The position numbers were made by a program, and so were the translations under genes. DNA of 64,000 nucleotides, from assembly GCF_017348835.2 (NCBI RefSeq), contig NZ_CP071375.1. One strand, 5' to 3'. This DNA is from Escherichia coli. Its GTDB lineage: Bacteria; Pseudomonadota; Gammaproteobacteria; Enterobacterales; Enterobacteriaceae. Of this stretch, positions 22,801 through 23,203 are shown in pieces (position 1 is the stretch's first letter; each line of letters begins with the position of its first letter). The notes below the pieces were generated by a model that did not search any database, was not told the DNA's origin, and worked only from the letters and a program-made list of their open reading frames with translations.

Positions 22801-23203
22801 TGGGGATCCCCACCTACCGGAATTTTTTTCCGGTTAAACGTTAATCAGGCTGGTGGGCTTTACCTGTTCGGTAGGTGTTATGATTATCGTAATACCTTTC
22901 CCCCAATGGGGTAAAAGCATCAACCGTAACGAAAGTCGTTATGGTTGCCACCGATACCCCAAATTTGGGTATCACGAGTAAGCCCCAAAATCTGGGTGTT
23001 ACTCTTACTACCCAAACTACGGGTAGTTTCCGTAGTTTCATGGTCGAGTTGCAGATCTGCAACTCCCCCATTAACCACAGGCGAATTTCCGCCTTCGGTC
23101 ATTCCTTAATCATCTGCGTAATCATAATGATTATTCAGCAAGCGCAATTTTGCGCTTTGCTTAAAGTTCAGCGAGTTACCGCGCCGACTTCCTCAAATTG
23201 AGG
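22801..23203. repeat. Non-coding region packed with at least seven distinct perfect palindromes
   Basis: TGGGGATCCCCA 22801..22812; CCGGAATTTTTTTCCGG 22817..22833; CCCAAATTTGGG 22958..22969; AAACTACGGGTAGTTT 23014..23029; GAGTTGCAGATCTGCAACTC 23046..23065; AAGCGCAATTTTGCGCTT 23140..23157; CCTCAAATTGAGG 23191..23203. Confidence 0.7.

What the first reader, a model, noticed from the sequence alone, without database searches (positions are those of the whole stretch)
22801..23203. Cluster of seven different perfect palindromes in a 400-bp non-coding stretch next to attL
Seven distinct palindromes of 12 to 20 bp, including the 20-bp GAGTTGCAGATCTGCAACTC, plus a direct repeat GTAGTTTC x2, are packed into one region that has no convincing ORF. 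Each palindrome is different, so this is not a single-operator array. It could be a set of binding sites for different dimeric regulators (for example helper-phage repressor decoys), a highly structured non-coding RNA, or a recombination or packaging accessory region.
Basis: seen in the sequence. Interest (0 to 1): 0.6.

Follow-up and report, generated by a model that had tools for sequence, protein, structure and literature searches.

The report
Hairpin-cassette trailer of a phage satellite
The flagged stretch is a real and extremely dense cluster of DNA hairpin-forming repeats in the non-coding tail of a phage-parasitic island (a PICI) in E. coli. It recurs, reshuffled, in over a thousand E. 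coli genomes, and it looks like a structure-based trailer rather than a set of regulator binding sites, but its function is unproven.

Summary
Window 22801-23203 holds 3 strictly perfect even palindromes (12, 12 and 20 bp), 2 odd-centred ones and 2 with a 2-5 nt spacer. Counting every hairpin with a perfect stem of at least 6 bp gives 12, against about 1 expected (maximum 5 in 1000 shuffles; fold z about -8.4 on both strands).

The stretch is the untranslated 0.7-kb tail of an 11.5-kb EcCICFT073-type cos PICI inserted in tqsA. It lies between the integrase arm sites and the last gene, orf93. The true cos sites, the ori iterons and the att core all lie elsewhere.

Relatives carry the same region as a mosaic of cassettes, 330-1090 nt long and always ORF-free. 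At fixed positions the hairpin persists while its stem sequence is replaced. G.T and A.C mismatches are balanced, so neither strand is favoured. There is no Rfam hit, and promoter and terminator motifs are not enriched. A correctly oriented Chi and IHF-consensus boxes are embedded in the region.

Best reading (about 0.35): a BIME-like array of stem-loop cassettes acting through secondary structure as the trailer of the island's one-directional operon. The operator or decoy reading is rejected. A neutral origin by duplication and template switching remains a strong rival. Interest is moderate.

The parts
22585..22593 (.). Left copy of the att core direct repeat TGCTGTTAT (right copy at 34077-34085). 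These mark the island boundary inside tqsA.
   Evidence: tqsA is annotated as split in the identical RefSeq record
22611..22691 (.). att arm: an IHF-consensus site AATCAATGCGTTA (22611-22623, minus strand) and two integrase arm-type repeats TGACTACACC (22668-22677 and 22680-22689). The same repeat pair occurs next to int at 33927-33948.
22790..22949 (.). Module A. Hairpins: TGGGGATCCCCA (22801-12), ACCGGAAtttttTTCCGGT (22816-34), AGGTGTTATGATtATCGTAATACCT (22873-97, two G.T pairs), CCCCAaTGGGG (22901-11) and CAACCGTAACGAaagTCGTTATGGTTG (22921-47, one G.T pair).
22849..22856 (+). Chi octamer GCTGGTGG inside module A, oriented to be recognised by RecBCD travelling leftward from the cos region.
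   Evidence: orientation rule from PMC12315714
22948..23075 (.). Module B. Three hairpins about 27 nt apart: GATACCC-N7-GGGTATC (22953-73), GAGTAAGCCCCA...TGGGTGTTACTC (22976-23004) and ACTACCC-N7-GGGTAGT (23007-27). An alternative hairpin AAACTACGG-N7-CCGTAGTTT (23014-38) is built on the GTAGTTTC x2 direct repeat. The module also holds the 20-bp palindrome GAGTTGCAGATCTGCAACTC (23046-65). About 80 nt of its core is nearly invariant across lineages.
23076..23210 (.). Module C. Hairpins: AGGCGaatttcCGCCT (23079-94), CTGCGTAATCATaATGATTATTCAG (23114-38), AAGCGCAAttTTGCGCTT (23140-57) and CCTCAAaTTGAGG (23191-203).
23140..23325 (.). Three copies of a roughly 48-nt unit: a hairpin with a CAAwTTG-type centre, then 9-10 nt, then the box WTCARNNRGTTA, which overlaps the IHF consensus (two of the three copies match it). 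Boxes lie at 23164-81, 23212-29 and 23308-25; the last overlaps the orf93 stop codon. Degenerate hairpins lie between them at 23230-47 and 23251-73.
23320..23601 (-). orf93, the last gene of the island's one-directional gene set (PHROG 1561, function unknown, predicted three helices). It is physically linked to the hairpin cassettes in 61 of 63 contigs found through the palindrome.
23666..23677 (+). Lambda-type cosN GGGCGGCGACCT (cos+). The hairpin tail is the roughly 1 kb on its cosQ side, which would be the right end of the packaged genome if this cos is used.
24532..24543 (-). Second, inverted lambda-type cosN (cos-), in the canonical cos-then-terS order with the TerS-like gene (23857-24398, minus strand, frameshifted).

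Best explanation
The cluster is a satellite-specific, BIME-like array of stem-loop cassettes that fills the untranslated tail of an EcCICFT073-type cos PICI. This tail is the roughly 0.7 kb between the last gene (orf93) and the integrase arm sites at the island edge. What is shown: the cassettes (modules A-D, about 27-nt and 48-nt units) are gained, lost, duplicated and exchanged between PICI lineages. At several fixed positions the hairpin is kept while the stem sequence is replaced. The region never carries an ORF. It also holds a Chi site oriented against RecBCD entering from the cos end, plus IHF-consensus boxes. What is inferred: the hairpins act through nucleic-acid secondary structure, not as sequence-specific operators. 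All island genes run on the minus strand into this tail, while the host tqsA promoter runs into it on the plus strand. I therefore propose that the near-perfect palindromes fold in transcripts from either direction. There they would form a continuously structured trailer that shields the late-operon mRNA 3' end from exonucleases, gives Rho little unstructured RNA to load on, and buffers the att and cos ends. The array would grow by tandem duplication of 'gene end plus hairpin' units and by template switching.
For: Density and stability are far beyond chance on both strands. The region sits at the same place (att arm to orf93 stop) in about 30 distinct IMG/VR variants. It is 330-1090 nt long, always ORF-free, with mostly 5-8 hairpins per 400 nt against 1.0 background. 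It is present in 1167 of 5426 complete E. coli genomes as a mosaic of modules. Stem turnover with retained hairpin occurs at fixed positions upstream of a conserved box; at least 8 different stems are seen. The only variant of the 20-bp palindrome is in its centre, the loop. The array is linked to orf93: 61 of 63 palindrome-bearing contigs have orf93 within about 50-1100 nt, including lineages with a different integrase and capsid module. The 48-nt unit begins in the last codons of orf93, which suggests duplication of gene end plus stem-loop. G.T and A.C mismatches are balanced (44 vs 39), as expected if both strands must fold or if the constraint acts on DNA. Gaps between the perfect-stem hairpins are at most 73 nt, and all but two are 34 nt or shorter. 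All island genes are on one strand and read into the tail. Published work describes Gram-negative PICIs as unidirectionally transcribed (PMC6092414).
Against: There is no direct evidence that the tail is transcribed. Intrinsic-terminator-like sites are not enriched and the hairpins lack U-tracts. Stem columns are no less variable than non-stem columns in orthologous alignments (34% vs 35%, p=0.77), and many single-sided changes break pairs, so individual hairpins turn over rather than being strictly conserved. Some relatives have few or no hairpins in this position (L034 1.6 per 400 nt; L051 has about 180 nt in total), so the array is not essential to the element. One or two hairpins would suffice to stabilise an mRNA 3' end. 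About 80 nt of module B is conserved in sequence, not just in structure, which this model does not explain. Distant orf93 relatives in other genera lack the cluster.
Confidence: 0.35

Rival explanations
1. Neutral filler shaped by mutation. In this reading the tail is a tolerated non-coding spacer, perhaps retained only for genome length or to hold Chi. Its palindromes would be created and 're-perfected' by local inverted or tandem duplication and by quasi-palindrome template switching during replication, with no selected function for the hairpins themselves.
For: Stems are as variable as non-stems, and many variants carry broken pairs. Hairpins are born and die between variants: h1 is 12 bp here but a 26-bp perfect palindrome elsewhere, and AGGCG...CGCCT is part of a 26-nt palindrome in L002. 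A 9-nt slippage deletion between the GTAGTTTC repeats is seen in L086. Complementarity often runs to the very centre (loops of 0-2 nt in 7 of 12 hairpins), which structure-only selection does not require. There is no strand bias. Hairpin-poor variants exist. From my own knowledge, template switching can make compensatory-looking double changes in a single event (Monttinen and Loytynoja, PNAS 2022, recalled and not checked here).
Against: No other 400-nt tile of the 64-kb window comes close (12 vs at most 6), so a general mutational process does not produce this density. Bacteria delete neutral DNA, yet the tail persists across lineages and is never shorter than about 330 nt in intact elements. 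At fixed positions hairpins persist through complete stem replacement. The module B core is more conserved than synonymous sites of the adjacent gene (4% vs 29% in L002).
Confidence: 0.25
2. A DNA-level cis element. The palindromic units plus IHF-type boxes would act on duplex or extruded DNA, as BIMEs do when they bind IHF and gyrase or as the pSC101 par locus does. The effect would be to organise supercoiling or bending near attP and cos, or to act on the first or last DNA to pass the portal. Chi would protect this end from RecBCD.
For: The region lies next to the att arm and 0.35-0.9 kb from cos(+). IHF-consensus matches lie at 23214-26 and 23310-22 and in the arm at 22611-23, and the relaxed IHF-type pattern is over-represented in the window as a whole (14 matches vs 5.05 expected). 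Chi is in the active orientation in 17 of 19 relatives with the same cos pair, in at least 8 different flanking contexts. Symmetry without strand bias fits a duplex-level role. Chi clustered at the right end is known in lambdoid phages that lack Rec modules (PMC12315714).
Against: No protein binding has been tested. The palindromes are short for cruciform extrusion. Stem sequences turn over, so no sequence-specific binder fits. The distance from the att core varies between 330 and 1090 nt. L002-type lineages carry Chi in the opposite orientation.
Confidence: 0.17
3. A stand-alone structured non-coding RNA, for example a multi-hairpin protein sponge or an antisense regulator of orf93 and the packaging genes. 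It would be transcribed from the plus-strand promoter-like site at 22724-22752.
For: The predicted fold is very stable. The only promoter-like site in 22300-24500 points into the region on the plus strand. In this window G.T pairs outnumber A.C pairs in the imperfect stems. The 80-nt core of module B is sequence-conserved and has mutually exclusive alternative hairpins.
Against: There is no Rfam family at either threshold. There is no terminator. Across relatives there is no strand preference. Modules come and go, so no fixed architecture exists. No shared loop motif is apparent by eye. The promoter match is weak (9 of 12).
Confidence: 0.1
4. An array of operators or decoys for several dimeric DNA-binding proteins, such as helper-phage repressors or terminase.
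For: There are several perfect or near-perfect palindromes of operator-like size. GTTTCCG, the core of the lambda cosB R elements as I recall them (not checked here), occurs twice.
Against: Half-site sequences are not conserved where the hairpins are. No similarity to any phage record outside cos was found. The central variant of the 20-bp palindrome is tolerated. The box motif is absent from both cosB regions.
Confidence: 0.05
5. A small protein-coding gene: PGAP calls a 52-aa hypothetical protein on the minus strand at 22920-23078, and an 86-aa ORF lies on the plus strand.
For: The ORFs exist and one is annotated in RefSeq.
Against: There are no PHROG or NCBIfam hits. The ORFs span modules that are absent or rearranged in relatives. 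Their sequence is dominated by palindromes.
Confidence: 0.02

Closest known systems
BIMEs / REP (palindromic unit) arrays of enterobacterial chromosomes, including IHF-binding RIP/RIB elements
   Same: Both are extragenic arrays of imperfect palindromic units in variable number, placed at the 3' end of operons or between convergent transcription units. Both are interspersed with IHF-consensus motifs and evolve as mosaics. The known roles of BIMEs (mRNA 3' stabilisation, IHF and gyrase binding) would fit this location.
   Different: There is no sequence similarity to the REP consensus. The units here are heterogeneous rather than one family. They are not dispersed around the chromosome but confined to one slot of one family of phage satellites, next to orf93. 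They are far denser than anything else in the window.
Promoter-stem-loop cassettes (PeSLs) of T4-type phages and the 'boundary/linker' sequences of lambdoid phages (recalled from memory)
   Same: Both are short non-coding stem-loop-containing cassettes that are shuffled between related mobile genomes and mark module junctions.
   Different: No promoter consensus accompanies the hairpins here. The cassettes do not flank cargo ORFs, and none of about 30 variants has a gene in this slot.
Chi-rich right ends of lambdoid phages that lack recombination modules (PMC12315714)
   Same: Chi lies in the orientation active for RecBCD entering at the cos right end, close to that end, in an element with no gam or red genes.
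   Different: Only one or two Chi sites are present. This explains one motif inside the region, not the hairpins. A sister lineage has the opposite orientation.
EcCICFT073 and related E. coli cos PICIs (PMC6092414, PMC6739421)
   Same: Shared features are the unidirectional gene order, a capsid plus head-decoration gene pair, two lambda-type cos sites, a PerC/RgdR-type regulator gene and an iteron ori after the replicase.
   Different: The papers read here (keyword passages only) do not mention this non-coding tail. This island has a Nu1-like TerS gene (frameshifted), and it shows no sequence similarity to the solved RppC.

Membership tests
REP/BIME | Units match the 35-40 nt REP (PU) consensus | tested here: not met
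   The Y-type consensus with up to 3 mismatches gives 0 matches in the window. The units here have many unrelated stems.
REP/BIME | Hundreds of copies dispersed in extragenic regions around the chromosome | tested here: not met
   There are 1461 places in 1167 genomes, median 1 and maximum 6 per genome. All inspected copies lie at the end of a PICI next to orf93.
REP/BIME | Binding of IHF, gyrase or Pol I; mRNA 3' stabilisation | not testable with these tools
   Only IHF-consensus matches can be shown.
Intrinsic (Rho-independent) terminators | G+C-rich stem-loop followed by a U-tract | tested here: not met
   Three terminator-like sites were found in 22300-24500 against 2.3 expected, and none lies inside 22801-23203.
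Repressor operator array / decoy sites | Conserved half-site sequence across orthologous elements; similarity to operators of helper phages | tested here: not met
   Stem sequences are replaced while the hairpin is retained. There is no phage match outside cos; however, short operator-length identities would escape that search.
Known RNA families (Rfam 15) | Covariance-model match at the gathering score | tested here: not met
   There are 0 matches in the whole window. Only chance-level hits (E of about 4-8) appear in 22550-23900. No tRNA or tmRNA was found.
Structured ncRNA in general | Strand-specific constraint (G.U tolerated, A.C not) and compensatory covariation | tested here: inconclusive
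   Compensatory stem replacement is seen, but wobble types are balanced at 44 vs 39 and 34 vs 31, and stems are no more conserved than non-stems.
Lambda-type cos site | cosN GGGCGGCGACCT with flanking cosQ and cosB | tested here: not met
   The cosN copies are at 23666-77 (+) and 24532-43 (-), outside the finding.
Iteron replication origin | Direct repeats next to the initiator gene | tested here: not met
   Iterons CCTCACTTTT lie at 28260-28450 downstream of the RepA helicase gene. There is no tandem array in 22600-23400.
Type III antitoxin / CRISPR-like repeat arrays | Near-identical tandem direct repeats | tested here: not met
   TRF finds nothing at score 30 or above. The 48-nt units are only 72-78% alike.
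EcCICFT073-type cos PICI (the host element) | int, unidirectional genes, replicase plus ori, capsid and decoration genes, lambda-type cos, size about 10-15 kb, specific att site | tested here: met
   description in PMC6092414. Induction and transfer are not testable here.

The most novel reading that the evidence does not exclude
The hairpin array would be a dedicated functional module of cos PICIs that travels with orf93. It would be the terminal roughly 1 kb of the packaged genome, combining Chi with a continuously folded nucleic acid. In the boldest form, this folded element would work as an anti-Rho or anti-nuclease 'leader/trailer', or as a multi-hairpin sponge for a helper-phage or host nucleic-acid-binding protein. 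It would then control satellite establishment or helper interference. This would be a new class of cis element for phage satellites, with orf93 as its possible partner.
Probability: 0.15. Interest if true: 0.7.

Novelty: new variant of a known kind. Interest (0 to 1): 0.4.

Why it matters
E. coli PICIs of the EcCICFT073 type are model phage satellites, and their coding genes (Rpp, AlpA, capsid genes, defence cargo) are under active study. The papers read here do not mention their non-coding tail. If the hairpin cassettes, Chi and IHF-type boxes form a functional end module, they would bear on three questions: how satellites survive RecBCD after injection or packaging, how the one-directional operon is insulated from int and from host genes, and how modules are exchanged between satellite lineages. 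If the array is only a by-product of template switching and duplication, it is still a clean natural example of palindrome birth and death in a mobile element. In neither case does it overturn a major view.

Tried and rejected
- Rfam at gathering and at permissive thresholds: nothing. ARAGORN: nothing.
- TRF: no tandem array.
- Promoter and terminator scan: no enrichment.
- Phage GenBank collection, DNA search: only the cos part matches. orf93 protein against phages: no match.
- Exact-sequence literature search for six hairpin sequences: no paper. Searches on PICI/cos/sRNA, SpLE2/sRNA and PICI/Chi found nothing describing this region.
- Genome-contig scans with orf93: only two 41-42% relatives (Pluralibacter, Edaphovirga), neither with a hairpin cluster.
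- orf93 structure (pLDDT 71, three helices) and Foldseek against PDB: no significant match. PDB sequence searches for orf93 and the TerS-like protein: no RppC or Nu1 hit.
- KilA-N remnant idea: the 20-bp palindrome occurs inside a KilA-N-like ORF of phage contig L101, but only 21-24 nt are shared.
- Cargo-hotspot idea: no variant carries a gene in this slot.
- The MAFFT alignment of paralogous units (A2) put odd- and even-centred hairpins out of register, so the count of structure pairs was not run and stems were tabulated by script instead.
- Excess of central complementarity against the window background: not significant (p=0.12).
- Considered by eye only and not pursued, as resemblances were weak or incidental: nut-like boxA/boxB, oriT-like or IS200/IS605-like 'hairpin plus cleavage box', attC, CsrB-like GGA loops, and a LexA box at 22722-22745.

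Full report
**What is in the sequence**

The window is E. coli chromosome. An 11.5-kb island is inserted in tqsA between direct repeats TGCTGTTAT at 22585-22593 and 34077-34085. A RefSeq record that is 100% identical over the 721-nt query (window 22600-23320) gives the layout, with all island genes on the minus strand. The order is integrase, a small HTH protein, an Icd-like protein, a RepA-family helicase, SSB, a PerC-family regulator, major capsid protein, head-decoration protein (frameshifted), a 137-aa protein, a Nu1-like TerS (frameshifted) and a 93-aa protein. About 0.7 kb without genes then follows up to the tqsA 5' fragment. The PHROG hits agree.

This matches published EcCICFT073-type cos PICIs. 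Those are described as having unidirectional transcription, a capsid gene (c1499) plus a decoration gene (c1500), and two lambda-like cos sites (PMC6092414; PMC6739421). The window also has two lambda cosN sequences, GGGCGGCGACCT at 23666-23677 (+) and 24532-24543 (-). They are inverted and flank the TerS-like gene. The only similarity of 22620-23700 to any GenBank phage record is this cos segment, including phage 21 cos. Iterons CCTCACTTTT at 28260-28450 downstream of the helicase gene mark the likely ori. Integrase arm-type repeats TGACTACACC x2 sit near both junctions, at 22668-22689 and 33927-33948. The flagged stretch is therefore not cos, not ori and not the att core or arm. It is the non-coding tail between the arm sites and the last gene, orf93 (23320-23601, minus strand).

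**Checking the observation**

- Three strictly perfect even palindromes of at least 12 bp lie in 22801-23203, of 12, 12 and 20 bp.
- Two more are perfect around one central base, and two have 2-5 nt centres. 'Seven perfect palindromes' is therefore generous.
- The underlying signal is stronger than stated: 15 hairpins with perfect stems of at least 5 bp and 12 with stems of at least 6 bp in 403 nt.
- For comparison, tiles across the window average 1.0, the next-best tile has 6, and the maximum in 1000 dinucleotide shuffles is 5.
- RNA folding z-scores are -8.35 (+) and -8.59 (-).
- The GTAGTTTC direct repeat is real. Together with AAACTAC it creates mutually exclusive alternative hairpins.
- ORFs of 60-86 aa cross the region, and PGAP annotates one of 52 aa. 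They have no family hits and are not preserved in relatives.

**Comparative evidence**

The region or parts of it occur in 1167 of 5426 complete E. coli genomes. Only 217 genomes hold at least 80% of it. The others hold only module A (22790-22949) or only module B (22948-23070), and so on.

At three different insertion sites (tqsA, downstream of tRNA-Ile, downstream of phoQ) the modules sit at the same end of a PICI, just beyond an orf93 homologue. One of these lineages has a different integrase arm repeat and a protease-capsid fusion instead of the lambda-E-like capsid.

Among 80 IMG/VR loci anchored on orf93, about 30 distinct versions of the arm-to-orf93 interval were found. They are 330-1090 nt long, contain no ORFs of note, and mostly have 5-8 hairpins per 400 nt. 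A few are hairpin-poor. Searching instead for the 20-bp palindrome gave 63 contigs, of which 61 have orf93 within about 50-1100 nt. Distant orf93 relatives (41-42% identity) in Pluralibacter and Edaphovirga have no cluster, and GenBank phages have no orf93. The hairpin cassettes are therefore a lineage-specific companion of orf93 in E. coli and Shigella PICIs.

**How the hairpins evolve**

Some positions show textbook structural conservation.

- Upstream of a conserved box (WTCARNNRGTTA, which overlaps the IHF consensus WATCAANNNNTTR; two of its three copies match that consensus) there is always a hairpin 9-10 nt away. Its stem may be AAGCGCAA, AGCTCAA, AGCAAAGAGCAA, CCTCAA, CGACCTCCTCAA, TCCCCCA, CAGC or ACCCA.
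- After module B the hairpin may be AACGCAA, AAGTGCA, AACCCA, GAAATT, AGGCG or AGGCGGAA.
- TAATCAT/ATGATTA is replaced by TGGTCAT/ATGACCA within conserved flanks.
- When loci were collected without conditioning on the palindrome, its only variant was a central G-to-A change, which is the loop of an 8-bp-stem hairpin.

These patterns argue against operators, where the half-site sequence should be conserved. They argue for nucleic-acid structure.

Other results point the opposite way.

- In orthologous alignments stem columns are as variable as non-stem columns (34% vs 35%), and many changes simply break pairs.
- Hairpins lengthen, shorten and disappear between variants.
- G.T and A.C mismatches are balanced, at 44 vs 39 and 34 vs 31, so no single transcribed strand is favoured.
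- About 80 nt of module B is nearly invariant in lineages whose orf93 differs at up to 29% of four-fold sites. This implies either sequence-level constraint or recent horizontal spread of the cassette.
- The 48-nt unit starts within the last codons of orf93 (box 3 overlaps its stop codon), which suggests tandem duplication of 'gene end plus stem-loop'.

**Other motifs in the tail**

- A Chi octamer lies at 22849-22856 on the plus strand, 0.8 kb from the cos(+) end.
- It is on the strand whose 3' end points to cos, which is the active orientation for RecBCD entering there. The rule is restated in PMC12315714.
- Plus-orientation Chi is present in 48 of 53 relatives of the first set, in at least 8 different flanking contexts.
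- It is present in 17 of 19 distinct relatives that share the +/- cos pair.
- Lineages without a nearby lambda cosN carry Chi in the opposite orientation, between the unit hairpin and the palindrome.
- Chi is thus a regular component of this tail, consistent with exposure of this end to RecBCD. It does not explain the hairpins.
- IHF-consensus matches occur at 22611-23 (arm), 23214-26 and 23310-22.

**Interpretation**

The data support a satellite-specific, BIME-like array of stem-loop cassettes acting, if it acts at all, through secondary structure in the untranslated trailer of the island's single-direction gene set. Host transcription from tqsA converges on the same region from the other side. 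Palindromes that are nearly perfect Watson-Crick fold equally on both transcripts, which fits the absence of strand bias. The close spacing of the hairpins (gaps mostly 34 nt or less, at most 73 nt) would leave Rho little unstructured RNA and would block 3' exonucleases.

Transcription has not been shown, U-tracts are absent, and the array is dispensable in some relatives. I therefore put this reading at about 0.35. The rivals are:

- a neutral origin by duplication and template switching (0.25);
- a duplex-level role near att and cos (0.17);
- a discrete ncRNA (0.10);
- operators or decoys (0.05);
- a small protein-coding gene (0.02).

**Comparison with known systems and novelty**

The closest known kinds are REP/BIME arrays, including the IHF-binding RIP elements, and the shuffled stem-loop cassettes of phage genomes. 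Membership in REP/BIME fails on sequence and on distribution, so this is a resemblance in mode of action, not membership. The host element is a member of the EcCICFT073-type PICIs. I found no paper describing this tail. I classify it as a new variant of a known kind, of moderate interest.

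Noticed in passing
window 23666-23677 (+) and 24532-24543 (-): Two exact lambda cosN sequences lie in inverted orientation and flank the TerS-like gene. The minus-strand copy has the more lambda-like cosB-side sequence and the canonical cos-then-terS order. This mirrors cos1 and cos2 of EcCICFT073.
   Followed up: partly
window 22849-22856 (+); relatives L004-L155: A Chi octamer sits in the orientation active for RecBCD coming from cos. It is conserved in at least 8 different flanking contexts. A sister PICI lineage without a nearby lambda cosN carries Chi in the opposite orientation. 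The island as a whole has 7 Chi sites in 11.5 kb.
   Followed up: partly
window 23857-24398 (-) and about 25031-25430 (-): The TerS-like gene and the head-decoration gene are annotated as frameshifted in the RefSeq record that matches the query region 100%, so this copy of the island may be partly decayed.
   Followed up: no
window 28260-28450: About seven direct and inverted copies of CCTCACTTTT lie immediately downstream of the RepA-family helicase gene. This is the likely PICI replication origin.
   Followed up: partly
L101 5503-5522 (IMG/VR contig of about 50 kb with a tape-measure gene): The 20-bp palindrome GAGTTGCAGATCTGCAACTC occurs inside a 257-aa KilA-N-like ORF, where it encodes ELQICNS. 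The window's plus-strand ORF reads the same peptide, but only 21-24 nt are shared. This may be chance or a captured fragment.
   Followed up: partly
L034, L045 and L083, last roughly 50 nt before the orf93 stop: Some relatives replace the hairpin-plus-box units with 4-5 direct repeats of (T)GTCAC spaced about 10 nt apart. These look like iterated protein-binding sites.
   Followed up: no
window 23277-23286 (-): A one-mismatch inverted copy (TGGCTACACC) of the integrase arm-type repeat lies at the orf93 end of the tail. A related GATGTAGCC motif recurs in relatives as part of a cassette.
   Followed up: no
window 22724-22752 (+): The only sigma-70-like match in 22300-24500 (TAGACA-17-GATCAT) points from the att arm into the hairpin tail. 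It overlaps a weak LexA-box-like sequence, CACAAGAAATATACAG.
   Followed up: no
window 21364-22045 (-): The host genes mdtJ and mdtI lie on the same strand about 0.55 kb beyond the island edge. Read-through from the island's operon would run into them.
   Followed up: no
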